The translations under genes were made by a program, and so were the position numbers. From Lama glama (lineage: Eukaryota), in assembly GCA_028534125.1 (NCBI GenBank), contig CM052816.1, positions 42,782,001-42,846,000 on the forward strand: a stretch of DNA of 64,000 nt, in the 5' to 3' direction. The notes beneath the pieces are model-generated. The model saw only the letters and a program-made list of their open reading frames with translations, had not been told where the DNA came from and did not search any database. This document shows, in pieces, positions 650-60,403 of the stretch. Positions within the stretch are counted from its first letter, which is position 1; every line of letters begins with the position of its first letter.

Positions 650-2412
650 CTGAAAGAAAAAAAAAATTGAATAGCTGTCAAATAGTAACCTGCTAGAAAT
701 TTTTTTTTAGAATGTCATTATTCTGTGACAGATAATGTATTATAATTTATTTTTATTTTCAGTTCTTTTTAGTGTAGTAAGATAAAGGACGGTATAAATG
801 GAGAAATAATATACCAAAAGTTAAACACCTTTTTAAATGTATGTTCAAATTATTTTCCTTCTTACCATTCATCCTGCTATCCCCACCCCCCCTTTTTTTT
901 CTTATCTATTCTTAGATGGCAGAAACAGTCAAACTAGTGAGCTGGCTTAGGCCCAGTTCTTCCTACTTTTGATGCCTTGCTTGCTTTGACATGAAAAAAA
1001 AAAAAGGAATGCTTAAATTGTCCCATTTCAACAGCCCCAAACATTCCAGCTGTAGGAATTCTTTACATAGTCAAGTTGTGTTCTTGCAACTTTACTTACT
1101 CTGAGGGTTTTTTTAAAATATATTAACATCTTATGTTTAGTTTTTGAAAATTACATTCATCAATACTGTCTGAGCAAATGAGCATGGAAGTAAAAACTCT
1201 CAATTACTACCACTGAGGAAATAATGATAAATATTTTATAGACACCTTTTTTACCTACAATGTAGGAAGACAGACAATATAACTAGGATGCCAATCTAAT
1301 TGGAAAAACGACAAATCAAAGATCTTATGACAATTTACTTAAGTCAGTAAATGAACCTTGCATCTTGAGGGTAAAACCCCTCCAGGTCTATTTGAGTGCA
1401 CTAGCCAGGAGACCCCTAAAGACATATATGATTTTGCTCAGTGACTTCAGATGCCCCCTCTTTAGGAAAGGGAAGTCAGTGAATAAACCCCAGAGAATAT
1501 AAGAAAGGCAGGCTTCTCCACTGATCTTTGACAGTCACATCTGCTTTTTGAAGAACATAACCAATGAACAAACAAGAGTTGCCCATTCCTCATCAGGATG
1601 AAAATTTAAGGACTGTCTTCTGAAGCTAAGAATCTCCTGCTCTTAGAGTTAAGGGTGGGAGGGGAGGTTAATCAGTTTGGCCTCTAAAGAATTATTTTGA
1701 ATTAATAATTTTGACATTTGTCAAAACTGGGAAAAAATTAGCAAAAAAGGAATATAAAATTAGATTTAGCACATACTTTATATGCAAAAAGGGGGCAAAG
1801 GATAAGTAGAACTTTAAGTCTAATAATAATGCTTAAAAATGAATTCATAGAGTAGTGAAGGCTTTTGTAGGGTGGAAGGAGCATGGATATTGGAGTCAGA
1901 CCTGAGTTGAAATCCCAGCCCTGCCACTTCTTAGCAGTGAGACCTTGTGCAGGTATCTGAATCCCTTTGAACCTTAGTCTTTTCTATAAAATGAGGATGA
2001 TGGTATCATCTTGTAGGGTTGGGGTGAACATTACATAATAAATGTAGCACGTCAGACTCCCTAACATAGAGGTGTTAATCCTCCAGAACAACTGAAACCA
2101 AGGTACAATGAGAGGATGTTGACTACTGATTGGGAAAGATAACCATGAGTGTTAGAAGACAGCTTGATCAGAAAAAACAGTGGTGTTTTTAATCTTGAGA
2201 CCCAGATTAAAAGTCTTAGGACACCTACTTTGGAATTCAGATGCTGATTTACAAAGTAGCTGCTCCTCACAAGGGCAACCTTTTGTAAACTCTCCTAGTA
2301 TGAGAAGCAGTAGATATTTATATATTTTATGATGATTACTGGCTCCCTTGAGCAAATGCTCTGTAAGTCAGCTCATTACACATAATACTAAACTTAAAAA
2401 ATATATCAACAA

Positions 2413-2595
2413 TAAACAACAAGTTTATAGTGTATAGAACAGGGAACTATATTCAATATCCTATAGTAACCTACAATGAAAAAGAATATGAAAATGAATA
2501 TATGTATGTACATGTATGAGTGAACTATTAAGCTTTACACCAGAAATTCACACAACATTGTAAACTGACTATACTTCAGTTAAAAAAATATATGT
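2413..2595 (+). mobile_element. 5'-truncated L1 3' end with 12-bp TSD
   Basis: L1 3'UTR motifs and A-rich tail; TSD atatatcaacaa at 2401-2412 and 2596-2607. Confidence 0.88.
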
Positions 2596-2613
2596 ATATA
2601 TCAACAAACTTAC

Positions 2614-3198: not shown

Positions 3199-3757
3199 CT
3201 TTATTTTTTTTAACATTTTTATTGATTTATAATCATTTTACAATGTTGTGTCAAATTCCAGTGTTCAGCACAATTTTTCAGTCATTCATGGACATATACA
3301 CACTCATTGTCACATTTTTTTCTCTGTGATTTATCATAACATTTTGTGTATATTTCCCTGTGCTATACAGTGTAATCTTGTTTATCTATTCTATAGTTTT
3401 GAAATCCCAGTCTAGCCCCTTCCCACCCTCTACCCCCCTGCTAACTACAAGTCTGTATTCTCTGTCCATGAGTCTATTTCTGTCCTGTATTTATGCTTTG
3501 TTTTTGTTTGTTTGTTTGTTTGTTTTTGTTTTTGTTTTTTAGATTCCACATATGAGCAATCTCATATGGTATTTTTCTTTCTCTTTCTGGCTTACTTCAC
3601 TTAGAATGACATTCTCCAGGAGCATCCATGTTGCTGCAAATGGCATTATGTTGTCGGTTTTTATGGCTGAGTAGTATTCCATTGTATAAATATACCACCT
3701 CTTCTTTATCCAGTCACCTGTTGATGGACATTTAGGCTGTTTCCATGTTTTGGCTAT
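3199..3757 (-). mobile_element. Young L1 3'UTR/ORF2 end, cut off by an assembly gap
   Basis: T-rich tail, then typical L1 antisense sequence (catccatgttgctgcaaatggcatt..., gttgatggacatttagg). Confidence 0.88.
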
Positions 3758-3857
3758 NNNNNNNNNNNNNNNNNNNNNNNNNNNNNNNNNNNNNNNNNNN
3801 NNNNNNNNNNNNNNNNNNNNNNNNNNNNNNNNNNNNNNNNNNNNNNNNNNNNNNNNN
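3758..3857. other. Assembly gap (100 N)
   Basis: Run of N. Confidence 0.99.
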
Positions 3858-4882: not shown

Positions 4883-7108
4883 TGCCGGGAGGCTCAGGAA
4901 GGGAGAAAAGAGGATGTTGAAGATGGCTGGAAAGCAGGGACCAACTGGCACATGGCCATGACAGGGGAGTTCCTGTATTCAGCACTTTAATACACTTTAA
5001 TACTTAGAAATACCTTATTTCAGATCTATTCTTAGCTTAATTTTCCTAAAAAAGCTTATTAGACTAAGAATTTAAATAATTCTCTTGTTTTCCTATGAGA
5101 AGTCAGGATTAAACTCCCCAACTTGAAGGAAGGATTTGAATTTAGGCAGTCTGACTCCAGGATCTCTGAACTCTTTAGTACTACTCCGTAAGTCTTGTTT
5201 TACCGTAGTTATTAAACTTCACAATCATCTTCAGCTGAGAAAAACAAAATAGTCTATGTAGAATGACCCTCCCAACCCTTCACTAAGATCCTGTAACAAG
5301 GAGGGCTTTACAGTTCAAATCACTAGCAGTGAAGCATTCTTTTAAACACAACTGCATTTTTATACAATTACATTTTCACAATTCAAATTCTGGATTTATC
5401 CTTTATGTGAAAAGAAGGCAGACATTTTATAAAAAAAAAAGCCAACTATTAAATGAAAAAAAAATCACATGAAAATAAATTTGAAAGAGAAAGTCAAAAC
5501 AATTTTAATTTAAAAATGAGACTACTTTTATATCTAACTGAGCTAAAGGATGCTGATACTAGGTTATCAGGGAAGAAAATATTTCGGGGAGTCATTTTTA
5601 AAGAATGATCTCTGAAATACATAAAGATATCAACTTTAATAGTATAAAGATTTCCTATTCATAACAATGGCACTTTTTTGCCATTACAAGAAAATGATAA
5701 TGTGATAGTATACTATAAAGGACCTACAAAGATACACAGACTAAGAATACTCTTCCTGCTTAATGATAAAATAATCATTTTATAGAAAATAACCACATTT
5801 TTAAAATACCTTTAAAAAGCTATTTTTAAATTCAGACTTTTAAATAAAAGCATTGTACCATTTTAAAATTCAATGGACTCTTAATATAGTAAGGTGGGTT
5901 TATTAAAACAGGAATCTCAATGAGTTTTTCCTATTTAATATCTTTCTATTTAAGGTTTTTTGAGTCATCATCTTTTATATATTTTTAAGGTCCATAGAAT
6001 GGAAGGGAAGAGGCAGTCTGGCTTGAAGCTTTGATCTGAGAAATTTAATCTCATACTCTTTGTGTATAAATTGGATTCATACAAAACAATATAGCTATGG
6101 CTAAGCTAATAAAGAAAGGACCTTCAGAATTCTAAGAATAGATTATATTTTATATCTATTTTAAACTTCTAATTGGTTAGAAGAATCTCAAAATAAGAAG
6201 TCCTTTGTAGACACTTTATCAAAATCTGTAAGCATAGGTAAAATAGAATATACTGACCCACAGGTTCTAATTTTAGAATGAATCACTACTGAAAGTAGCT
6301 TTAAACTCTTCTGGTGTTGAGTACTTTCATTTTAAAAGGTTGAGGTAAACATCAGATTAAACATAGACCATCAGAATTATCTTTGCCTTGTCTGGTAAGG
6401 CTGTTCAGTAAGGCGACAGACTCAATTTATGCCTGTTAATCCTGGTGTCATTGGTATAGCATCCTTTTACTCTAAAAAATGTGCTAATTTGGAAAATAAA
6501 TTAGATAGATACCCTATCTCAATAAACAAAAAACTGTTTATATGGTTCTAAAGTCTACATTTTCTTTTCAATCATACATGGGGACACTTTCATGTGTCAT
6601 TTCACCTTTTCAAATAAAATTGACTTTACCCAATTCCTTACTACTAGAAATTCATACTGTTTCTGATTCTTTATCATAATAAATAATAAATATCCATGGA
6701 GATAAATCGTTGTGTGTATCTACAGGTTATTTTCTAAAATTGGAATTTTTCTAGGTCAAAATGTGTGCATATTTCTAAGTAATTTGGAACATAATGCCCA
6801 CATTTGCCTCCAGAAAATCTGTGCCAGTTTATACTCCCAGCAGCAGAATGAGGCCTATTTCCAATGTAAGCTTTTCTGCTTTTTAAAAATCTTTGCAAAC
6901 TCTATGTGTGAAAGAAAAATGGTATCTTCTTGTTTTAATATTTTTCTGACTACTGAATTTGAAGCTTAAAAATATCTTGGCCATTTGTGTGTCTTCTGTT
7001 GTGAATTGCTTATTTATATATTTGGTCAGTTTGTTAATAGGGTATTTCTCTTTCTCTTACAGATTTGTGAGAGCTCTATTAATAACCTTTTATTTGTAAA
7101 AAGGTTAA

Positions 7109-7551
7109 TTTAATTATTTTAATCTTATTTTTTTAAAACTTTTTTATTGAAGTATAGTTGATTTATAATGTTTCATTAGCTTCTGGTATACAGCATAGTG
7201 ATTCTGTTATATATATGTTCTTTCTCATTACAGATTACTGCAAGTCACTGAATACAGTTCCCTGTGCTATACAATAGAACCTTATTGTTTATCTATTCTG
7301 TACATAGTAGTGTGCATCTCTCAATACCAAACTCAATTTCTCTCTCCCTCCTCCCTTTGCCCTCTGGTGACCATAAATTAGTTTTCTCTGTCTGCAAGTC
7401 TTTTTCTGTTTTGTAAATAAGTTTATTTGTGTCATTTTTTTAGATTCCACATATAAGTGAGACCATATATTTGTCTTTCTCTGACTTACTTCACTTAGTA
7501 TAATAACCTCTAGGCCCATCCATGTTGCTGCAAATGACATTACTTCACTCC
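7109..7551 (-). mobile_element. 5'-truncated L1 with TSD, next to an older L1 remnant (about 6690-7090)
   Basis: TSD aaaaaggttaa at 7098-7108 and 7554-7564; ORF-track peptide FAATWMGLEVIILSEVSQ is the L1 ORF2 C-terminus. Confidence 0.88.
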
Positions 7552-13339: not shown

Positions 13340-13791
13340 CTAAAAAGGAGAGAAAAACAAAGCTGTAATATTCCTCCCTTCCAACAAGTATGTTGTTTAA
13401 TTACTTAGGATAGTAGAAAATAATTGTTATGAATTAGCTAGAGAAAAAAGTAAATCAAATGCATAAATTAGGAACAAGCTGTCAATATTCCCAGTAACAA
13501 CAAAAGGTATATATCACTATCTGTATACATAGTGAGACAGTTGTGAAATTATTTTAAAAATTGAAAACATGAAAATGAAAATGAAATGTCAATGGAAAAA
13601 ATGAGCTACATTAGACAGTATTCTATTCCATGATAAGTATCTAAGTACTTTAACAGAGTTGTGTGATCAATTCAAAACTTCAGAGTCAATAACCTAAGAA
13701 TCTAGACTCCTTTTTTCCAGTAGTTCATTAGTAAAAATGCCAGTATCTAGTGAGGTAGCCAAATGTTTGTTAAGAACAAATACAACTTTTT

Positions 13792-13874
13792 TTAAAATTG
13801 AAGTGTAGATGATTTACAAAGTTGTATAATTTCTGGTGTACAGCATAGTGATTCAGGTATACATACATATGTAT
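13792..13874 (-). mobile_element. ~83-bp L1 3' tip with perfect 15-bp TSD
   Basis: TSD caaatacaacttttt at 13777-13791 and 13875-13889. Confidence 0.85.
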
Positions 13875-20974: not shown

Positions 20975-21185
20975 AAACAATAATATTAAAACTATATAAT
21001 AATACTTATATAATATAATAATAAATAATATTGATATTATGCATTTTATCTTATAATGAAATAATAATATATTAATAATTATACTATTATATAGGTATTC
21101 TGTTATATATTTTATATTTTATGGTATTTATTATAAATATATTTATGCAACTATATATTGTTATCAAATTATATAATAGTAGATA
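20975..21185. repeat. AT-rich low-complexity tract
   Basis: Almost entirely A/T, degenerate TA/TAA units. Confidence 0.8.
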
Positions 21186-23981: not shown

Positions 23982-24141
23982 CTGATGGAGTGATGTCCTG
24001 AGGTATAGTCCAGTTTTCCAAATTTTTGTGTTCGGTAGCCATACTTCTCCATGACATCCATCCATGTTGTATAATTTGGATCTAGGCCCTTAAAGTTATT
24101 CCAGGATTCTGTTAAGTGAGTGAAAAGGCCACTCCACATTG
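23982..24141 (-). CDS. ARSK: ARSK coding exon 3 (160 nt): MWSGLFTHLTESWNNFKGLDPNYTTWMDVMEKYGYRTQKFGKLDYTSGHHSI
   Basis: ttttcccccag acceptor, AG|GTAAAA donor; read by hand because the ORF track shows another frame; GKLD motif. Confidence 0.96.
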
Positions 24142-24689: not shown

Positions 24690-27310
24690 AATATTAACAG
24701 ACCTAAAGGGAGAAATAGACAGCAGTACAATAACACTAGAGGACTTCAATATCCTATTTTGAACAGTAGATAGATTTCCAGACAGAAAATAAGAAAACAC
24801 TGGACCAAACTTCATGTTAGACCAGATAGACTTAACAGGCATTTTCAGAACATTCCATCCAAAAGCAGCAGACTGTACAGTTTTCTCAAGTGCATATGGA
24901 ACATTCTCCAGGAAGATCATATGTTAGGCCACAAAACAAGTCTTAATAAATGTAAGAAGATTGCAATTATTTCAAGCATCTTTTCGAACCACAATGATAT
25001 GAAACTAGAAATCAATCACTAGAAGAAAACTGGAAAATTCAGAAATTTGTAGAGATTAAATAACATTAAATAACACAATGGGCCAAAGAAGAAATAAAAA
25101 AGAAAATCAAAAAATATCTTGAGACAAGTGAAAATGGAAATACAATATATCAAAACAAATGTCATGCAGAAAAAGCAGTTCTAAGAGAGAAGTTAATAGC
25201 TATAAATGGCTACATTAAGAAAAAAGAAATAGCTCAAAAAACAACCTAACTTTACATCTGGAGGAACTAGAGAAAAGAAGAACAAAGTCCAAAGTTAGTA
25301 GAAGAAAGGAAATAAAAAAGATCAGAGTGGGAATAAATGAAGTAGAGACTAAAAAGACAACAGAAGACATCAATAAAACTAAGAGTTGTTTTTTAAATAA
25401 TAAAATGGACAAATTCTTGGCTAGACTTTCCAAGAAAAAAAGAGAGGACTCAAATAAAGTTAGAAATTGAAGAGGAGATGTTACAACTGATACCACAGAA
25501 ACTTAAAGGATGATAAGAGACTACTGTGAACAATTACACCAACAAACTGGACAAATGGATAAATACCTAGAAATACAACCTACCAAGATTGAATCTTGAA
25601 GAAATAGAAAGTTTGAACAGACCAATTATTAGTAAGGAGATTGGATCAGTAGTCAGAAATCTCACAAAAAGAAATATCCATGACCAGATGGCTTCACTTG
25701 TGAATTCTATAAGACATTAAAAGCAGAATTAAAACCAATCCTTCTCAATCTCTTGCAAAAAATAGAAGATGAGGAAACACTTCCAAAGTCATTTTATGAG
25801 GTCAACATTACCCTGATACCAAAATGAGACAAGGACATTACAAGAAAAAAAATTACAGGCCAAGATCCTTGATAAGCATAGATAGAAAAACTCTCAACAA
25901 AATATTAGTAGACTTAATTTAACAATACACTGAAAGAATCATACATCATGATCAATTGAGACTTATTCCAGGGATGCAAAGATGGTTCAGGATCTGCATA
26001 TCAGTCCATGTGATATACCACATTAGCAAAATGAAGGACAAAAATATATGATCATCTCAATAGATACAGAAAAAGCATTTGACAAAATTTAACATCCATT
26101 CATAATAAAAACTCTTGACAAACTGGGTATAGAAGTAATATATACAAGTCTACAGCTAATATCATGGTCAATCGTAAAAAGCTAAAAGCTTTTCCTCTAA
26201 GATCAGCAACAAGACAAGGGTGCCCACTCTCACCACTCTTATTCAATATACTAATAGAAGTCCTAGCCTGAGTAGTAGGCAAGAAAAAGAAATAAAAGGC
26301 ATCCAAATCAGAAAAGAAGAAGTAAAATTGTCCCAATTTGCAGAGACATGGTATTATATATAGAACATCATAAAGATGTCACCAAAAAGCTGTTCAAACT
26401 AATCAATACATTCAGTTAAGTTGCAGGATATAAAATCAATATACAAAAATGAGCGGCATTTCTATATACTAAAGATGAACTATCAGAAAAAGGAATTACC
26501 AAAAAGTCTACAATTGCATCAAAAAGGGTAAAATACCTCGGAATAAATTTAACCAGGAAGGTGAAAGATCTGTACACTAAAAATTTTAGGACACTGATGA
26601 CAGAAATTGAAGAAGACACAAGTAAATGAAAAATAGAAAGCAAAGATGGGGAACTAGTCAGTGGCAGAGGTCTGATTACTTAGGTGTAGTAATCTAGAAT
26701 GTTGACTGAGACTCAGTGAAATATGTAATGAAGAGATACTGCATCTTAGTGTATTTGCTGTGTCTTGTCTGATTTGGCACCTTGTCTGCCTGTGTGCCTC
26801 TATACCTCAGTAGAAGCCTCCCTTCAGGGAGCCTCCTCTGGCTTGTTCAGATGGAGTTTGGAGTCAGGTACTTTTTTCACCTCAGAACTCCATACCTGTT
26901 TTCACTACATTGTTATAATTATTTCCCTAAAAGTCTGTTTCAAATTATGAAAACCTGGTCATCAGGAAGATAGCAGGTCCTTTTTGATTGCTGGTTGAAG
27001 ATGGCGTTTATCATTTGTTCAGCAGTTATGTTGGTGTTGGGGTCACAAAAGTTAACAAGGCCCCAGTGTTTGGAACTTAGCTTCAGTAGTTACCTCACTG
27101 TTGTTGGTTTTTTGGGAGGTGCCATTATGGGATAGGATAGAGCTTGTGCTGTATCATTGGTTAGATTGCTGGCAGTGTTATGTGGATGCATGTAAGCCTA
27201 ATTTGACTGTTCAACTCATGGGACTGTTCTTGTTTTCTCTAGAATATTTTGTATACCTTAAACTAATACAATTTTATATGTCAGTTATACCTCAGTAAAA
27301 CTAGAAAAAG
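24690..27310 (+). mobile_element. Degenerate L1: ORF2 EN/RT portion (24690-26633) + non-L1 insert (26634-27260) + L1 3' terminus (about 27249-27310)
   Basis: ORF2 motifs (gaggacttcaat, ccagatggcttcact, gaaaaagcatttgacaaaat, acaagacaagggtgcccactctcacc); terminal ttatatgtcagttatacctcagtaaaactagaaaaa. Confidence 0.85.
26634..27260 (+). repeat. Dispersed direct duplicate (copy A) of 43273-43886
   Basis: Collinear alignment by eye; exact block of at least 42 nt, 26901-26942 = 43527-43568. Confidence 0.93.
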
Positions 27311-28708: not shown

Positions 28709-28838
28709 CTGCGCGTGATGGGCAACAAATTGGAGAGTTTGTATAGGCATTCAGAAAGGATGTGCCATGTGCTTTCATGAAGTTGATAAAAGGGAGTTTC
28801 ACTACCTGACTTCCTGGATAAAATGTTAGTCTTCCATC
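28709..28838 (-). CDS. ARSK: ARSK coding exon 2 (130 nt): DGRLTFYPGSQVVKLPFINFMKAHGTSFLNAYTNSPICCPSRA
   Basis: ttattccag acceptor, G|GTATGA donor; contains the catalytic formylglycine motif CxPSR. Confidence 0.97.
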
Positions 28839-29820: not shown

Positions 29821-30354
29821 TAAAAAGAGAGGGCATTTAAAAAATAAAAAGAGGCCCACTAATTGGCTTTATGTATAAAAGTGACCAAAATGACACCAAG
29901 TGCCTTAATTCCTGCATTCTGCTATTATTCTAGACTCTCATTGGTCCAGGCATTTTCCTCTTGGGCTGGATGAGCCTTTGGGTAGATATGGTTCTGTGAT
30001 CTGGATTGCTCCTTCTAGAACCATGACTTGGTAGTCAGTTCCTCATCCTTCTGGGACAGGGAAAACGAGTGAAATTTCGAGACATCATTCTGATGAAAGA
30101 ATGTTAACAGTAACTTTAACTGTCTGATCTATTATCACAGCAAAACTGTTCGGAGGATTCTTCTCAGATCTGTCCATCAGACTGAATGAGATCCTCGCTA
30201 GATTCTGTGGTATACAGCTTGAGCCCACCTCCCACTCCTGAAACCTCACCAAAACTATAAAAAGTGCAGATGCAGGGGTGGAAGAGGGGAGGCAGAGAAG
30301 ATGCTTATGCCCCTTAAGACCTAGGCAGAGGTGCTTATTTTCTCTTTTCAAAAC

Positions 30355-32550
30355 TGGGTTTATTAAGATATAATTCAGATATCATACAACTAACCCATTT
30401 AATGTGTACAATTCAATGGTTTTCAGTATATTCAGAGAGTTGTGCAACCATCACCACAATCGATTTTAGAACATTCTCATCCTCTCCCAAAGAAACCTTG
30501 TATTCCTTAGCCATCACTCACTGCTCCTCCCATTCCCCCAGACCCTAGGCAATTGCTGATCTTTCTGTCTCTACTTTCTGTCTCTATATATTTGCTTTCT
30601 CTGAACATTTCTTTTAAATGGACTTATATAACATGTGGTCCTTTGTGAGTAGCTAGCTCCTTTCACTTAGCATAATGACTTCTAGGTTCATAATACATTT
30701 CAGCATGTATCAGTACTGCATTTATTTTTATTGTTGAATAATATTACTGAATTTTATTTATCCATGTATCAGTTGATGGATATTTGGGTTGTTTCCACTT
30801 TTTGTTTTTTTGGCAGTATTAACATTCATGTACAAGTTTTTGTGTGGCCACAGGTTTTCATTTCTCTTGGATATATACCTCAAAGTGAAATTGCTGGATC
30901 ATATGGTAACTCATGTTTAACATTTCAGGAATTGCTAAGCTGTTTTCCAAAGTGGCTGCACCATTTTACATTCCCTTGAGTAGTGTATAAGTGTTGCAAT
31001 TCTCCTATATTCTTGCTGACTCTAGTTATTGTGTCTCTTTTATTATAGCCATCTTAGTGGGTGTGAACTGGTGTCTCATTGTGGTTTTGATTTGCATTTC
31101 CCTAATGATGAATGATGTTGAGTATCTTTTCATGTGCTTATTGGCCATTTATGTATCTTCTTTGAAGAACCATCTATTCAGATCTCTTGCCCATTTTTTA
31201 AATTGCCTAATCCAAGGTCACAAAGATTTGTACCTATGTTTTCTTCTAAGAATTATATAGTTTTAGCTTTTATGTTTGATTTATTGATTCATTTTGTTAC
31301 TTTTTGAAAATGGTGTGAGGCATTTTGCATATGGATAGTCAGTTTTCCCAGTGCTATTTGTTGAAAAGTCTATTCTTCCCTATTAAATGGTCTTTGCACC
31401 CTTATTGAAAAATCATTGACTATAAATGTGAGTTTATTTCTCTACTTTTAATTCTATTCCACTGATTTCTATGTCTGTCTGTACCTACGCCAGTAACACA
31501 CTTTCTTGATTACTGTAGTTTGTGGTAACTTTCAAAATTAGGAAGTGCAAGTCCTCCAATTTTGTTCTTCTTTTACAAGATTTTCTTGGGTATTCTGGGT
31601 CCCTTGAATTTCCATATTAATTTTAGGATGGGTTTTTCTACTTCTGCAAAACCGTCATAGGGATTTTTATAGAGATTGCATTGAATCTGTAGATCAATTT
31701 GGTGATTATTACTATATTAACAATATTAAATCTGATTCATAAGTGTAAATTATTTATTTAGATGTTCTTTAATTTCTTTCAACAATGTTTTGGAGTTTTC
31801 AGAGTATAAGAATTGAACTTCGTTGGTTAGATTTATTCCTACGTATTTCATTTTTTGATGCTATTTTAAATAGAATTGTTCATTTTACTTTCCATTTTTT
31901 CAGTAAACAAATGTATAAAAATACAATTGCTTTTTGTGATCTTTTATCCTACAGCCTTGCTAGACTAACTTACTAGTTCTAAAAGTTTTGTAGTGGATTC
32001 CCTACAATTTTCTTTATATAAAATTATGTTATCTGCAAATAGAGATACTTTTACTTTTTCCTTTCCAACCTAGGTGACTTTTATTTCATTTTCTTGTCTA
32101 ATTCTCTGGCAAGAACCTCCAGCACAACTGCTGGACAGACACAGTGAGATCAGATAGCCCTGTCTTGTTCCTGATCTGTAGGAGAAAACATTCAGTCCTT
32201 TATTGTTAAGCATAACATTAGCTCTGGCTTTTTTGCAGATGTTCTTTATCAGTTTGAAGAAATTCTCTTCTATTTCTACTTTGCTGAGTGCTTTTATCAT
32301 GAACGGTTACTGAATTCTGTTAAATGTTCTTTTTGCATCTATTGAAATGATCATGTATTTTTTGCCCTTTATTTAATGGATGTGTGGTGTATCACATCGG
32401 CTGATTTTCAAATATTAAGCCCAGCTTACATTTGAGGGTAAATCACACTTAGTTATGGTGTATAATCCTTTCTATATATTACTGAATTTGATTTGCTAGT
32501 TATTTTTTCAGGATCTGTTCCTCTATATCTATAAGAGATATTAGTCTGCA
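30355..32550 (-). mobile_element. Old L1 (L1MB-like) 3'UTR + ORF2 fragments in ARSK intron 1
   Basis: gtgtacaattcaatggttttcagtatattc...gttgtgcaaccatcaccac 3' end; antisense ORF2 remnants (ctcattgtggttttgatttgcatttcccta). Confidence 0.85.
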
Positions 32551-32960: not shown

Positions 32961-33699
32961 TCTTGTTACTCTCCAATATTGCCTGGTCTCTAAGTTTAGT
33001 TAATCATAAAGATTACTTTAAGTAATATTCTTAACAAATCTATGGGTATTTCCAGATTATGTAATTTTAATCATCATTGGGTTAATCTATGAGGAAGACA
33101 ATACAACATAATGATTAAAAGCACTCTTTGGTGCCAGACATGCTTAACACCAACAATCTGTGTGACCACAGTAACATCCAGTCATAATAAATTAATATTA
33201 TAATTAGTATCCAAACATTCATTCAAGCAGTAGTTTTAATATTATGGATAATACTAAAAGTATCAGGTAATGTTGATAGTAGTATTCTGTTTAGTTTTTG
33301 GCTTGGGAAAGTTCCAAAAACTGTTCAAATTTGAGATTAAACACGAACACACATAGACACAGTTTATCTGGAATATGGGCAAGTTGATCAAATTATACTA
33401 ACTAATGAATATAAATCAGCACTAACAGGATTATCAGATACCCTGGTAATAAAAAGAACAGTGACCAATAGAAAGCTAATAGGCTTTTATATTGATACAC
33501 AATGTTATTTTACCCCCACAATCGAATCGACTGAAAGTTTATTAGTAAGATAATTTAGTTGGGCGAGGCCAGCAATTAAAGTAAATGTGCAGACACTAAT
33601 CGGAGTGCACCTTACTAAAGTATTGTTTTAAGTGTGTTATATGCGTTTCTACGTGGTGTACGTATGTGTGTACGGGGCCTCAAGACAAATTACAATTTT

Positions 33700-34700
33700 T
33701 ACTTTGCATCGGGGTAAAGCTTGTTTGAAAGCTCAGATTCTGCTCCCCAAAGCCTGCAGCACAGGAAGGGCTGAGGGCCGGTCGCGAGTGTGTAGCGGGG
33801 CATCCCCTCCCCTGCCTTTCGATACTTACGAAGGAATCGCTCACGACTAGCACCACGTTAGGCGCATCTGGCCAAGCTCCCCGCCTCTGCCCACCTGCCC
33901 CAGGAGCTGGTGCTGCCAGCGCCGAGGTTGCGACCACCGACACCCACAGCAGCAGCATCACCGGGATCCGTTCTGCGAGCCGGGCCGCTAGGCCCGCCCC
34001 CTCCCTCTAGGAACACCCTCCGGAGAAGAGGAGGGCGGGGATCGCACACACCGCAGTTTGGTTTCCTCAAAGCTCTTCACCCATGGAACTACAACTCCCA
34101 TTAGGCTCGGAGTGCGCACATGCGCACAGGAGGAATTCCTCTTCCTCAGCTCACAGTTAAGACCTTTTAATCAAATACCGAGCAAACTAAAACCCAGCTG
34201 CTTCCAGTCACGTGAGCGATGCCTGGGAAGTGCGCATGCGCTCTGACGCCAGACTTGGCGTTTGTAGAAGCATCTGTCCCAGGTGGGTGTTGGTCGCTGT
34301 CGCTTTTGCAGAAGTTGGAGCCGTTGTCATTTGAAATGGTACCTAGAGAGAGAAAGGGTCAGGGGCCGAGGCTGCTCGTTTTGCGCCAAGCAAGCGTGGC
34401 TGAGTGTTGGGGGAGTCCGTGAACTTGGCGATGATGAGGTGGCAGGGCGATTGTCGCTAAGTTGGATCGGGCTTTTCTTTGTAGGGCCTCCGGACCGCCT
34501 AAGGTGCGATGTGGATACTGTGTGGCCTCGCAAATACTTAACCCCCAGGGATATTTCTAGCCTGCCTTACCTTATTCCCCGCCTTGTCCGTGCAGTAAAG
34601 ATTTATTGTGCTTCGGTTGAGTGAGGAGCGGGGCCTAGTAAGAAAAGTTTCACCTTCTAGGTGGGAATAAGCTTAGGTGCACCTTGCCGCCAGAGTGCAA
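33700..34700. promoter_or_regulatory. CpG-island bidirectional promoter shared by ARSK (-) and SKIC3 (+)
   Basis: Only extended CpG-dense region in the window; GC box 33991-34000; ACTACAACTCCCA (ZNF143/THAP11-type) 34088-34100; GTGCGCACATGCGCAC 34112-34127 and TGCGCATGCGC 34231-34241 (NRF1-type); TCACGTGA 34208-34215; boundaries approximate. Confidence 0.9.
33830..33958 (-). CDS. ARSK: ARSK coding exon 1: signal peptide MLLLWVSVVATSALA...APNVVLVVSDSF
   Basis: ATG at 33958-33956, TTC|GTAAGT donor; hydrophobic leader followed by the PNVVLVVSDS sulfatase N-terminal strand. Confidence 0.96.
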
Positions 34701-34843
34701 AGGAGAGGCTGAGCGGGCTCTCACAGGAAGAAATGTTGGGCTGTGTGACGTGTTCTGTTAACTGACGTGGGTTCAGAATACCATTGTTTTGCTGCAATGG
34801 TTTTGAAAAATCACTGATCCTCTTGACTGTTGAACTCCTTTAG

Positions 34844-41211: not shown

Positions 41212-41433
<222 letters not shown>

Positions 41434-43272
41434 TAATTTGTAATATGTGACTCATTTACTGTCTGGGTATAACAGAAGTGCTCAGGCCATTTAGGAGAAC
41501 CATCAGAGTGAGATTCTTACTAGGACAGGCTACTTTTGCCTTTCTCTGTTTTGGTAACTTAATCAAAGACAAGTGCTCAAAACCTGAATGTCTCTTTGGT
41601 ATCTTTTGATGGGTTGTACCACGGAACACTGTTGTATCTTAATATCTTAATCCTTTAATGGTATGTTGACATTTTAATTCTCTTTGGTTTGTGGATGGGA
41701 GAATCAAGATTCTGAAGTTCCTTTATATGCTAATGGGAATGTTCTGGTTCAGAGGGAGAAGCTGGAGGTGCAGGAGGGATGCAGGCTAGTGGTGGGAGTG
41801 AAGTTCTTGGGAAGGTGAGTGGGATGGGACCCAGAGCTTGAGAGGAGGGGCTTTGATACTTTTTTCATCTTAACAGGAGGGAAGGTAGTTGGAGATTTAT
41901 AGCTGTCAGGTTTGTAGATTTGAGGGTGGGAAGATAAATGTTCCCCTCTGATGGCTTCTGTTTTCCTAGTGAAGTATAAGCTAAGGATGGAGGAGGAGTC
42001 GTATAGGAGGTTTGAGATGAAAGAAGATTGTGAGATTGTTATTATTCATAGTGGGAAAAGGAACTTACTAGTGAGGACTGGAAGGATTCCCAGGCTCTAA
42101 TGAATGTTCATTTGAAGTTTCCTGTTATTAAAGTGAAATCAGTGAACTCAGCTGTGTAGTTTCTTCCTTCATGTTCAACTTCTCAGGCTTGGAGGTGGGT
42201 GGGCAGGATGTAATTCAACTATGGATAGTAAGAAAGGTGAGGGGAAAGAGAGGCAAAGGAATGATGACAGTGATGGATCGTGGAGTCTAAGCTGGGAAAG
42301 GAGAGACAAGAATTGAGAAATGAGGTGATAGTGGAAGAGGGGGGTGAAGTAGGAAAAAATGGGCATAACAAGGTTAAAGAATTGTCCCCTTTACAGTAAC
42401 TGAACTGGGAGGATAGGGGTGGTGCATGTTGGAAATCCAGGGTTTGGATGGCTGAGTAGTGCCGAGGTTAAGTAGGTGGGAGACCTTGGTGTTCAGTGGG
42501 TCATCCACGTAAATATTAGAGTGATTACAGGGAATGAAGTGGAGAGGAAGGATACAGTATTTTCAGTGAGGAAAAGAGGACTTCCTAGAAGGTTGGTAGA
42601 TGGTAGCAACAAGAAGGATAGTATAGCTTGATGGCTCGACCTGGGATGGGATTTTCGAAGGAGGAGCAGAAGAAGGATGTAGGTGACAGTGTGAGCAAGG
42701 AGAACCCTTTCCTCACCTCCTGCTCCATGATGTGTGGGATGTACAAAAAAAGAAATCAGCTGCAGCATCTGAGATCCATAAGGGAATAGCCAAGTTTCTT
42801 TGAGGCAGAACTTGCGACAGTTAAAAGAAAGGTTAAAAATATAGAGGGAACGTGACTGGTCCAGATTGGAAGTTCTAGAGGTTACGATAAAAAGTTTAGG
42901 GCAGTGAGAGGGAGAGAATTGGGTAAGATTGGGGGAAATGCATAGCAGTATAGGATGAGAGTCTTAAGGGGTGAAGGGTGAAGGATGCCCTTGAGAGGTT
43001 AGGCTTCTAGTGGTGAGTGAGCCCAGGAGGGATGGAAGCTGTTACAGAACTGACTCTTACACAGAAGAGAGTGGGCAGTCTGTTCAAACTGGGTGAGAGA
43101 AGAAGGAGGTAGGGGAGGGGGAGGGACTGTTTTCTTCAGCACTGGGCTTATCTAACTAATACACAAAGGAGATTGCTTCTGTTATATATGCAGCAGCACC
43201 TCAGCAGTCTTCTTTCTGATTCAGATATGAATTCCACCAAGAAGCTTATAATTTATACTGGAGAGATTCAAC

Positions 43273-43886
43273 TAGAAAGCAAAGATGAGGAGTTAGTGGC
43301 AAATGTGTAATTACTTAGGTGTAGTAATGCAGAATGTTGATTGAACCTCAGTGATATTTTTATTGAAGAGATGGTGCATCTTAGTGTATTTGCCTTGTCT
43401 TGTCTTATCTGGCACCTTGTCTGCCCATGTGCCTCTATACCTCAGAGAGCCTCCTTTGGCTTGTGCAGATGGAGTTTGGAGTCAGGCACTTTTTTCTTTA
43501 TGTTATCCTAGAACTCCATATCTGCTTTCACTACATTGTTATAATTATTTCCCTAAAAGTCTGTTTCAGATTCTGAAAACCTGGTCATTAGGCAGATAGC
43601 AGGTCCTTACTGATTGCTGGTTGACGATGGCATATGTTATTTGTTCAGCAGTTATGTTGGTGTTGGGGTCACAAGTGTTAATAAGGCCCCAGTGTTGGGA
43701 GCTTAGCTTTGGTAGTTATCTCATTGTTGTTGGTTTTTTGGGAGTTAGCATTATGGGATATGATGGAATTTGTAAGATATATTGGTGACAGATTGCTAGA
43801 AGCATTACGTGGATGCACATAAGCCTAATCTGACTGGCTCAACTCATGGAAATGTTCTCATTTTCTCTATAATATGTAAAACCTTA
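43273..43886 (+). repeat. Dispersed direct duplicate (copy B, SKIC3 intron; probable donor)
   Basis: See copy A; the ORF track independently shows shared peptides (RTPYL.SLHCYNYFPKSLFQI.KTWS). Confidence 0.93.
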
Positions 43887-44569
43887 CAAGCTAATTTCAT
43901 TTTAGCTACCAGTTTTGTTTTTCTTTCACTGGAACATCTTTGCTTTCTATTTCAAACTCTTTTACCTGAGCAAGTAGTAGTTACTTCTGAAAGAAATAAC
44001 TCTGCATATAATTTTTATTCTAGTTGACAGGTGTTGTTTAAATATTCATTGCCACTGTTTTTTTTTTAACGTATTTGGTACAGTCACATTGGAGTCAACC
44101 TACTTTCCTAGCCTATAATTTCAGTGAAAAATCTGTGTAACATGGGTAAATGTTATCATAGAGAAGGAAAATATGGGCGTTGGATGAGGTGAAATGATAT
44201 TGAAAGTGGTTTTGTGAGTGACTAGTAGCAGTGTGGCGTGGAGGCAGGTGGGTTGGTTGGGTGGTAAGAACAGTCTTATTGTTCTTTTTATATCCAGTGT
44301 TCTCACGAGGCAGAGGGAGGCATTTGGTAGAGGCATCAGGATTACTTTGGTAGCTTTTAAAAAATATGCCTCATATTTCAGATCCCTTACAATCACTGAT
44401 CCAGTCCAACTCCCTCTCTTCCTGAGGAAACTGAAGACCAGAGAGGTTAAGTGGTATTCTTAAGATTGCCCAGTTAGTGGCGGATCCAGATTTCCTGACT
44501 TTTAAGTAGGTGGTCTTTTTATTGTTGTTTGTACATTAGCTCCCAAAATTTAATGACCTTCTCTTTTAA

Positions 44570-44806
<237 letters not shown>

Positions 44807-47035: not shown

Positions 47036-47656
47036 GTACTGATGCATTTATTCCCCGCAGTTTGTGTCATGAAAATTGATTATTTAATTGAATTTGGAAA
47101 ATGGAAACATAATGATATAATATAGAAAAGTACTGTATATCAGACTAGATATTTTATAAATGGTCAGTTTTAAATTCATAGAGGTTCTTCCTTGTAAAGT
47201 CAGAATTGCAGTCTGCAGTCTCATACTAAGTCTGGACAGAGTGGAAATAGTATTCAGGGTATCAGAATTTTACTTCCTTGTATTCATAAGAATCCACAAT
47301 AAATCAGTTACTTAATCACTGTGAAAAAGAAACTATGAAAATGGCTTTTACAAAACTGCTGTAATTTCTAAAATGTTGTACCTTAAATGTATGTTTCTTT
47401 ATGTTTGTGAACTAGGAGTACTAAATTACTTTGGGGTTTAACAATTGAACTAGAATATTTTATTTAGAATGTTTGTATTTAGTAGAGTACTTATACCTAG
47501 AAATACTCCTTCTTAAGGTACACATTTTGAAGTAATTGAAAAGAATTTTTAAAAGACTATAAAAAAGCCCATTGGTTTTGAACCATAACTGGAAAATATT
47601 TTCATCATTCTATTTTTTTATATTTGTAAGCTTAAAAGTAAACTCAATTTCTCTGT

Positions 47657-47890
47657 ATTAAAGACCTAAATGTAAGACTGGATACTCTTAACACTTCTAG
47701 AGGATAACATAGGCAGAACACTCTGACATAAATTGCAGCAATATTTGTTTTTTAATCCATCTCCTATAGTAATGAAAAAAAAGCCAAAATAAGCAAATGG
47801 GACCTAATGAAGCTTAAAAGCTTTTGCACAGCAAAAGAAACCATAAACAAAATGAAAAGACAATCTGCAGAATGGGAGAAAATGTTTGCA
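47657..47890 (+). mobile_element. Isolated internal L1 ORF2 fragment (no 3' end, no poly(A))
   Basis: attaaagacctaaatgtaagac...aaaagcttttgcacagcaaaagaaacc...gaatgggagaaaatgtttgca. Confidence 0.85.
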
Positions 47891-51797: not shown

Positions 51798-51888
51798 GGT
51801 CTCCCATCCAAATACTAACCATGCCCAACCCTGCTTAGCTTCCAAATCAGACAAGATAAGGTGCATTTAGGGTGGAATGGCTGTATAG
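51798..51888 (-). pseudogene. 5S rRNA pseudogene, about nt 1-92, 3'-truncated
   Basis: ggtctcccatccaaatactaacc...ctgcttagcttcc...agggtggaatggctgta is the reverse complement of vertebrate 5S rRNA; many of the mismatches are CpG decay. Confidence 0.92.
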
Positions 51889-52041
51889 TACAGGGAACTA
51901 TGTTCAATATCTTGTAGAAACCTATAATGAAAAAGAATATGAACATGAATGTATATATATATATGTATGACTGAAACATTATGCTGTGCACTGGAAATTG
52001 ACACAACATTGTAAATTGACTATACTCAAAAAAAAAAAAAA
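51881..52041 (+). mobile_element. L1 3' terminal fragment with poly(A), fused to the 5S copy
   Basis: ctgtatagtacagggaact...acaacattgtaaattgactatactc followed by A14; same family as 2413-2595. Confidence 0.88.
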
Positions 52042-52698: not shown

Positions 52699-53006
52699 TT
52701 TTGTGTGTCTGTGCTAAAGAGTGGCTGGTTTATTTATTTATTTTTTAATTTTTTAAACATTTTTTATTGCGTTATAGTTATTTTACAATGTTGTGTCAAA
52801 TTCCAGTGTAGAGCACAATTTTTCAGTGATACATGAACATACATATATTCACTGTCACATTTTTTTTTTCACTGTGAGCTACCACAAGATCTTGTATATA
52901 TTTCCCTGTGCTATACAGTATAATCTTGTTTATCTATTCTACATATGCCTTTCAGTATCTACAAATTTTGAAATCCCAGTCTGTCCCTTCCCTCCCTTCG
53001 CCCCCT
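52699..53006 (-). mobile_element. Young 5'-truncated L1 with 14-bp TSD and an extra 26-nt 3' tag
   Basis: Closely similar to 3199-3440; TSD aagaa(a/g)tcattctt at 52685-52698 and 53007-53020. Confidence 0.87.
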
Positions 53007-59903: not shown

Positions 59904-60403
59904 NNNNNNNNNNNNNNNNNNNNNNNNNNNNNNNNNNNNNNNNNNNNNNNNNNNNNNNNNNNNNNNNNNNNNNNNNNNNNNNNNNNNNNNNNNNNNNNNN
60001 NNNNNNNNNNNNNNNNNNNNNNNNNNNNNNNNNNNNNNNNNNNNNNNNNNNNNNNNNNNNNNNNNNNNNNNNNNNNNNNNNNNNNNNNNNNNNNNNNNNN
60101 NNNNNNNNNNNNNNNNNNNNNNNNNNNNNNNNNNNNNNNNNNNNNNNNNNNNNNNNNNNNNNNNNNNNNNNNNNNNNNNNNNNNNNNNNNNNNNNNNNNN
60201 NNNNNNNNNNNNNNNNNNNNNNNNNNNNNNNNNNNNNNNNNNNNNNNNNNNNNNNNNNNNNNNNNNNNNNNNNNNNNNNNNNNNNNNNNNNNNNNNNNNN
60301 NNNNNNNNNNNNNNNNNNNNNNNNNNNNNNNNNNNNNNNNNNNNNNNNNNNNNNNNNNNNNNNNNNNNNNNNNNNNNNNNNNNNNNNNNNNNNNNNNNNN
60401 NNN
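59904..60403. other. Assembly gap (500 N) hiding several SKIC3 exons
   Basis: Run of N; flanking exon phases are incompatible. Confidence 0.97.

What the first reader, a model, noticed from the sequence alone, without database searches (positions are those of the whole stretch)
24690..27310. L1 in ARSK intron 2 has captured a ~620-bp copy of the neighbouring SKIC3 intron in place of its 3' half
Seen: 26634-27260 aligns collinearly, on the same strand, with 43273-43886 in a SKIC3 intron 16.6 kb away. By eye identity is roughly 80-85%, with a few indels and an exact block of at least 42 nt. Copy A starts exactly where L1 ORF2 breaks off (...gaaattgaagaagacacaagtaaatgaaaaa|tagaaagc) and ends where an L1 3' terminus resumes (ttgtataccttaaactaatac...ttatatgtcagttatacctcagtaaaactagaaaaa). 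The right junction shows microhomology (donor tgtaaaacctta vs tgtatacctta). Established: L1 RT can switch templates, and templated insertions occur at repaired breaks. Inference: the L1, the insert and SKIC3 transcription all share + polarity. That fits an L1 -> nascent SKIC3 pre-mRNA -> L1 double template switch at a locus next to the donor gene. The alternative is post-insertion break repair that deleted about 2 kb of L1 and patched it from nearby DNA. The 600-bp direct repeats flank the shared promoter, so they are also a potential (diverged) substrate for a deletion disabling both genes.
Basis: partly seen in the sequence, partly recalled or inferred. Interest (0 to 1): 0.72.

Follow-up and report, generated by a model that had tools for sequence, protein, structure and literature searches.

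The report
Repair patch inside a dead L1
A roughly 610-base piece of a SKIC3 intron is duplicated 16.6 kb away inside an old jumping gene (L1), where about 1.8 kb of the L1 is missing; the copy is only about half as old as the L1, so it is most likely an ordinary DNA-repair patch added long after the L1 landed, with no sign of a function.

Summary
The duplication is real. Copy A (26634-27260) matches B (43273-43886) at 86.6% ungapped identity, with only these two hits genome-wide, and both copies appear in 4 of 4 public runs laid. A sits between an L1 ORF2 body and a matching L1 3' tail, replacing about 1.7-2.0 kb.

Capture during L1 insertion is not supported. The L1 has decayed 0.13 substitutions per site since insertion (95% 0.117-0.147), evenly over codon positions. 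Each copy has diverged only 0.074 (0.058-0.093). Equal age predicts 24% A/B differences; 13% are seen (P 2e-11). A frozen donor is rejected (P 6e-4).

Both junctions lie in short imperfect homology between L1 and donor (p about 0.017 and 0.012). I found no poly(A) at the insert and no target-site duplication. Best reading: a deletion with templated insertion, made by two template switches during break or fork repair in a dead L1. It works like the repair-mediated duplications of Pace et al. 2009, but falls outside their distance and deletion cut-offs. Earlier scan notes report similar patches on other DNA. An RNA template cannot be excluded, and no distant mammal could be compared. Low interest.

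The parts
24690..26632 (+). 5'-truncated, dead L1 body (ORF2, with many stops and frameshifts), antisense in ARSK intron 2
   Evidence: relatives continue upstream of 24690 and past 26632, the window does not; own branch about 0.13 per site
26634..27260 (+). Copy A, the inserted patch (acceptor); its last 15 or so bases overlap the L1 tail in a stretch of imperfect homology
   Evidence: 11 of 11 A-type letters between the two shared blocks appear in a separate contig in 4 of 4 runs
27245..27309 (+). Last 65 or so bases of an L1 3' end (L1MA9/L1MA10-like; the name is recalled, no Dfam search was possible)
   Evidence: (40 of 875 candidates scored, 86-92% identity); 12 of 20 extended body relatives carry a similar tail downstream
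43273..43886 (+). Copy B, the donor: unique sequence in the SKIC3 intron after the start-codon exon
   Evidence: lies between exons 41290-41379 and 44582-44725
43253..43292 (+). Donor left end, with short imperfect homology to the L1 sequence at the left break (donor TGGAGAGAT at 43259-43267, a relative's TGGAAAGAT)
   Evidence: mean score against 13 relatives reached by 1.65% of 8,254 windows
43857..43896 (+). Donor right end, with imperfect homology to the L1 3' tail (24 of 30 columns in the one alignment printed)
   Evidence: mean score against 16 tail copies reached by 1.22% of 8,254 windows
23982..24141 (-). ARSK exon 3 (context)
28709..28838 (-). ARSK exon 2, ending in CCPSRA (context)
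   Evidence: weak Sulfatase match E 0.013, below the curated cut-off
33830..33958 (-). ARSK first coding exon, inside a CpG-rich stretch (about 33600-34800) between the two head-to-head genes (context)
41290..41379 (+). SKIC3 start-codon exon, coding part (context)
44582..44725 (+). SKIC3 next coding exon (context)

Best explanation
A 610-base copy of SKIC3 intron sequence replaces about 1.8 kb inside an L1 and is about half as old as that L1, most likely because a break or stalled replication fork in the long-dead L1 was repaired by copying nearby DNA. Inferred steps: (1) an L1 inserted antisense in ARSK intron 2 and decayed; (2) in a germ cell a free 3' end inside the L1 paired through short imperfect homology with the SKIC3 intron 16.6 kb away; (3) about 610 bases were copied; (4) the new end re-annealed through a second short homology just before the L1 tail, skipping about 1.8 kb (SDSA or FoSTeS/MMBIR with two switches); (5) the allele became fixed and both copies have drifted since. 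Shown here: the anatomy, two copies only, the age gap and the junction homology. Inferred: the DNA template, a single event, and the pathway.
For: Age gap: median three-point branch of this L1 0.132, bootstrap 0.117-0.147, from 25 of 49 relatives; half the A/B distance is 0.074 (0.058-0.093); without CpG sites 0.124 against 0.072. 224 of 1,788 L1 sites carry private changes; equal age predicts p 0.244, observed 78 of 586 = 0.133, P 2e-11. Private L1 changes are even over codon positions (56/56/50, P 0.87; 12 of 16 windows framed), so they arose in dead DNA; the sister pair L068/L071 shows a third-position excess, so the test can see the opposite. The tree is star-like with no close sister to this L1. 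Donor not frozen: strong/weak polarity 29:38 against 39:23 expected, P 6e-4. No patchy conversion signal: mismatches are even over 8 bins, P 0.48. Homology at both ends. No poly(A) run or AATAAA/ATTAAA in the donor. Local repair patches inside old transposons are common in mammals (PMC2671141).
Against: No outgroup allele was seen: the runs found differ from this genome at 0-1 of 921 donor bases, so an intact L1 in a distant mammal is predicted, not observed. Only 40 of 11,541 and 40 of 7,871 L1 candidates were scored, so a closer L1 relative could be missing; the lowest single three-point values (0.098-0.109) lie just above the upper bound for A/B (0.093). Donor distance (16.6 kb) and deletion size (about 1.8 kb) exceed Pace's confident class, and among their interchromosomal cases 17 of 29 looked retrotransposed. 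Junction p-values come from windows chosen after seeing the alignment. The two L1 pieces are compatible with one element, but no target-site duplication proves it.
Confidence: 0.75

Rival explanations
1. Two steps: a repair-mediated duplication first went into the dead L1 with little loss, and a separate microhomology-mediated deletion removed the 1.8 kb (and perhaps one end of the insert) at another time.
For: It would bring the first event closer to the catalogued class, where deletions were 1-15 nt (PMC2671141 Table 1). Internal deletions are common in these L1s: 4 of the 12 relatives with a tail have it only 384-1,358 bases after the break point.
Against: It needs a second event ending exactly at or inside the insert. 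One event with two switches explains both homologous junctions more simply.
Confidence: 0.1
2. Later repair, but from RNA: a break in the dead L1 was patched with a reverse-transcribed piece of SKIC3 pre-mRNA (class 2 templated sequence insertion).
For: The donor lies in a transcribed intron close by. Class 2 insertions lack target duplications and poly(A), show microhomology, and were reduced by RT inhibitors in cell lines (PMC5110952). The age gap does not bear on template type.
Against: The experimental RNA-derived patches came from distant regions and were 73-414 bp long. A donor within 17 kb and homology at both ends are expected of DNA strand invasion (PMC2671141; PMC6902434). The insert holds no splice junction or poly(A).
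Confidence: 0.09
3. One reading: the L1 reverse transcriptase switched from L1 RNA to nascent SKIC3 pre-mRNA and back during insertion; the low A/B divergence would then need later whole-length gene conversion or strong constraint on the copies.
For: Same polarity of L1, insert and SKIC3. Double template switches are documented in a fungus and in mouse (PMC2104539), and same-orientation two-RNA insertions in cell models (PMC11702581).
Against: The age gap and rejection of a frozen donor. No target-site duplication. The tripartite chimeras I read about join three different abundant RNAs; L1-intron-L1 in register was not among them. The catalogued L1 chimeras carry the foreign part at the 5' end (PMC13174262).
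Confidence: 0.04
4. A and B are independent copies of an unrecognised repeat, or an assembly artefact.
For: The genome search skips common words, and the assembly holds mirrored contigs elsewhere.
Against: 2 of 2 candidates in both searches; no third hit in 0.5 Mb by nhmmer; 13% divergence rules out a collapsed or doubled read set; both forms are separate contigs in 4 of 4 runs.
Confidence: 0.02

Closest known systems
Repair-mediated duplications (Pace, Sen, Batzer, Feschotte 2009, PMC2671141; main text parts 1-4 of 8 and methods passages read)
   Same: An old transposon is interrupted by a sequence found at exactly one other place, on the same chromosome, with microhomology, a deletion and no poly(A). 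The length matches the top of their proximal range (maximum 619 bp). They found 824 in human, 202 in cow and 192 in dog.
   Different: The donor is 16.6 kb away (confident set under 5 kb; 58 of 1,136 were intrachromosomal and farther). The deletion is about 1.8 kb, whereas their filter allowed +/-30 bp in the consensus and inspected deletions were 1-15 nt, so their pipeline would have missed this one.
FoSTeS/MMBIR complex rearrangements with microhomeology (PMC2583991 and PMC6902434; passages read)
   Same: Two template switches give a deletion plus a templated insert from physically close DNA, with short perfect or imperfect matches at the joins (microhomeology at 51 of 159 PLP1 join-points).
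   Different: Those are recent disease alleles with known parents. This one is ancient and fixed, and its junction homology is read through about 13% later decay.
Class 2 templated sequence insertion polymorphisms (PMC5110952; parts 1-2 of 4 read)
   Same: A patch without target duplication or poly(A), with microhomology; intronic donors occur.
   Different: Their donors were distant, the patches shorter (73-414 bp in experiments), and an RNA template was proposed. Here the donor is local and the loss is large.
L1 chimeric insertions by template switching (PMC13174262 abstract, section 10 and part 1 of 2 of the discussion; PMC2104539 abstract and section 8; PMC11702581 passages)
   Same: Foreign sequence in the same orientation as an adjoining L1.
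   Different: They are defined by simultaneous arrival and flanking target duplications, with the foreign part usually 5' of the L1. Here the ages differ about 1.8-fold, no duplication is found, and the insert is internal.

Membership tests
Repair-mediated duplication (Pace 2009) | Insert of 50 bp or more interrupting one transposon, both pieces the same family and orientation | tested here: inconclusive
   Both pieces are + strand L1 in order, and 12 of 20 body relatives carry a similar tail; subfamily names could not be assigned
Repair-mediated duplication (Pace 2009) | Insert found at exactly one other place | tested here: met
Repair-mediated duplication (Pace 2009) | Microhomology, deletion or filler at junctions; no poly(A) | tested here: met
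Repair-mediated duplication (Pace 2009) | Donor within 5 kb (confident set) | tested here: not met
   16,639 bp
Repair-mediated duplication (Pace 2009) | Transposon pieces contiguous within 30 bp of consensus | tested here: not met
   About 1.7-2.0 kb missing; filter read
Repair-mediated duplication (Pace 2009) | Empty site in an outgroup | not testable with these tools
   Only near-identical genomes were reachable
Deletion with templated insertion (FoSTeS x2 / MMBIR / SDSA type) | Lost segment replaced by a copy of nearby sequence, donor intact | tested here: met
Deletion with templated insertion (FoSTeS x2 / MMBIR / SDSA type) | Microhomology or microhomeology at both joins | tested here: met
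   p 0.017 and 0.012 against 8,254 windows; windows chosen after the fact
Deletion with templated insertion (FoSTeS x2 / MMBIR / SDSA type) | DNA template and a single event | not testable with these tools
   Inference only
L1 chimeric insertion by RT template switch | Both parts arrive at the same time | tested here: not met
   0.13 against 0.074 per lineage
L1 chimeric insertion by RT template switch | Target-site duplication around the whole unit | tested here: inconclusive
   Best candidate no better than chance (0.56), but one would have decayed at this age
L1 chimeric insertion by RT template switch | Same orientation of the parts | tested here: met
NAHR substrate pair | Long perfect match (134-232 bp in mitotic assays, 300-500 bp in human meiosis) | tested here: not met
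   43 nt; thresholds, and an exception under 50 bp at alpha-globin repeats 5 kb apart, from PMC2583991

The most novel reading that the evidence does not exclude
A germline break in a dead L1 was mended with a reverse-transcribed piece of nascent pre-mRNA from the neighbouring head-to-head gene, annealed by short homology at both ends. That would be a fossil of RNA-templated repair in cis between the two sides of a shared promoter.
Probability: 0.09. Interest if true: 0.55.

Novelty: new member of a known kind. Interest (0 to 1): 0.14.

Why it matters
It matters little biologically: it is an old intronic scar with no open frame over 66 codons and no evidence of function. It has two modest uses. 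It shows that such patches can come from 17 kb away and replace kilobases, a form that the Pace et al. screen filtered out by design. It could also serve as a presence/absence marker for dating the lineage once distant mammals are compared. The A/B pair does bracket the shared ARSK/SKIC3 promoter, but is too diverged to be a serious deletion substrate.

Tried and rejected
Target-site duplication: no candidate better than chance. B as a dispersed repeat: no third hit; by eye I suspected an L2 remnant in B, and nhmmer gave no support. Frozen donor: rejected. Patchy gene conversion: no signal, and the 43-nt block is not unusual (P 0.13). Inflation of the L1 branch by changes made in an active parent element: no third-position excess. 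The missing L1 part lying elsewhere in the window or resembling A/B: only other, separate L1 fragments match, and A/B give no hit below E 0.05. The left L1 junction was not examined in reads of other animals. In one search no joints or loose ends were listed, but only B was laid, so this says nothing on an A-B deletion allele; contig depth there is no copy number and is not used as evidence. Subfamily age from papers: the passages found gave none. One paper on deletion breakpoints that I recalled is not held and is not used. No description of this locus turned up in the listings; most subscription journals are not searched. No supplements were read, and Pace's Table S1 could hold closer cases.

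Full report
OBSERVATION. The strongest off-diagonal match in a self-comparison of the window is 26631-27276 against 43270-43904, same strand. The core alignment has 522 matches, 81 mismatches and a longest exact block of 43 nt; K2P distance is 0.150. Searches of the own genome (2.35 Gb) with B and with A each gave 2 of 2 candidates, the two copies themselves. nhmmer against 0.5 Mb of fetched loci found no third copy. A lies between ARSK exons 2 and 3 on the opposite strand; B lies between the SKIC3 start exon and the next exon.

OTHER ANIMALS. 20 of 24 listed runs, from 9 studies and 6 organism labels, hold 0.79-0.96 of the sampled words of the A region; one may be the source of the assembly. 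Laying 4 runs on B showed in each a B-type and a second 130-base contig between the two blocks that A and B share. All 11 A/B differences in that interval appear in the second contig; one further letter in 2 of the 4 runs is not in this genome's A. So both copies are real. These animals differ from this genome at 0-1 of 921 donor bases, so they are no outgroup. The left L1 junction was not examined in reads.

L1 ANATOMY. Similarity to other L1 copies starts sharply at 24690, where relatives continue upstream, and stops at 26632, where they continue into the rest of ORF2. It resumes at 27245 for about 65 bases of 3' tail. Of 20 body relatives fetched with long flanks, 12 have a similar tail downstream, at 384-3,669 bases from the break point. 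I took the five at 1.70-1.98 kb; they are largely collinear with each other, which puts the lost part at about 1.7-2.0 kb. The two pieces are compatible with one element. The label L1MA9/10-like is recalled. No target-site duplication could be told from chance.

JUNCTIONS. I scored 40-base windows across the break in relatives (13 of 20 for the left, 16 of 29 tail loci for the right) against the donor ends and against 8,254 other windows. The donor ends were matched or beaten by 1.65% and 1.22% of windows. The windows were chosen after I saw the alignment, so this is supportive and not decisive. The donor has no poly(A) signal or A run at its end.

DATING, THE DECISIVE TEST. If the insert was captured when the L1 landed, A and B together should differ by twice the L1's own decay. 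I aligned the L1 body with the 25 of 49 loci that cover at least 1,350 bases in one piece. The median three-point branch to this L1 is 0.132 (bootstrap 0.117-0.147); half the A/B distance is 0.074 (0.058-0.093); masking CpG sites gives 0.124 against 0.072. Using this L1's own substitution spectrum, equal age predicts 24.4% A/B differences, and 13.3% (78 of 586) are seen, P 2e-11, an age ratio near 0.55.

LOOPHOLES. (a) The 78 differences happen to equal one lineage's worth of L1-age decay, so a donor frozen by selection would mimic the result. That model predicts 39 sites with A weak and B strong against 23 the other way; observed are 29 and 38 (P 6e-4), while equal drift fits (P 0.33). (b) The L1 branch could include changes made in an active parent. 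Its private changes fall 56/56/50 over codon positions, whereas the sister pair L068/L071 shows a third-position excess. (c) Later conversion between A and B: mismatches are evenly spread (P 0.48); one early whole-length conversion cannot be excluded. (d) Only the best 40 of about 11,500 and 7,900 L1 candidates were scored, so a closer relative may exist; the tree is star-like. At 2.2e-9 per year, the rate used in PMC2671141, the dates would be about 34 and 60 million years; that rate is not calibrated for this lineage.

MECHANISM. The best-supported reading is repair of a break or collapsed fork in the dead L1 by two template switches, out to the SKIC3 intron and back to the L1 tail, each through short imperfect homology. 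DNA as template is inferred from closeness and two-sided homology. A two-step history, or an RNA-derived patch, cannot be excluded. The shared + polarity carries little weight.

COMPARISON. Pace et al. found 1,136 transposons in the human genome interrupted by a sequence with one other copy, 824 with the donor within 5 kb and up to 619 bp long, and similar sets in cow and dog. This case works like those but fails two of their cut-offs, so I do not file it in their confident set. It fits the wider class of deletions with templated insertion and microhomeology. It fails the same-age criterion of L1 chimeric insertions. I was led to the Pace paper by two earlier scan notes on other genomes; my reading was fixed before that look-up, and I read the paper but did not check those loci.

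DELETION RISK. A crossover between A and B would delete 16.6 kb with ARSK exons 1-2, the CpG-rich region and the SKIC3 start exon. With 43 nt as the longest perfect match this should be very rare; PMC2583991 gives 134-232 bp for mitotic assays and 300-500 bp for human meiosis, with an exception under 50 bp at repeats 5 kb apart.

VERDICT. Real, well supported and ordinary: a new member of a known kind, somewhat unusual in donor distance and deletion size. Interest 0.14.

Noticed in passing
G000 contigs C105730 (L013/L014), C83510 (L038/L039), C86843 (L057/L058): Pairs of loci on the same contig are exact reverse complements over 3.1-3.7 kb. For C105730 the coordinates sum to contig length + 1, so the whole 785 kb contig looks mirrored, probably an assembly artefact that doubles hit counts. 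The pair L041/L042 on C2 is not such a mirror.
   Followed up: partly
window about 30350-32500, minus strand: A second, different L1 in ARSK intron 1, 64.6% identical to the first over 25992-26627, in the same sense as ARSK; its 3' end looks like an older type (recalled).
   Followed up: no
window 26807-26823: The 17 bases that A has and B lacks look like a short tandem duplication in A, or a deletion between short repeats in B.
   Followed up: no
window 20977-21125: Imperfect inverted repeat, 73% identical to its own reverse complement; possibly a small DNA transposon remnant.
   Followed up: no
window 2412-2597, 3200-3393, 7103-7292, 13780-13869, 51881-52038, 52727-52941: Copies of one short dispersed repeat, 67-85% alike; the same repeat sits inside the L1 of L072.
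   Followed up: no
window 47654-47890, 3518-3757, 7215-7550: Further short fragments that match L1 3' parts of fetched relatives.
   Followed up: no
L077 (G000:C5:49120600-49127900) near 2951-2970: An L1 relative that appears to have its own internal deletion starting within about 20 bases of the same ORF2 position as the window's break; one case of 20, may be chance.
   Followed up: no
window 3758-3857 and 59904-60403: Two assembly gaps (600 N in all), far from the finding.
   Followed up: no
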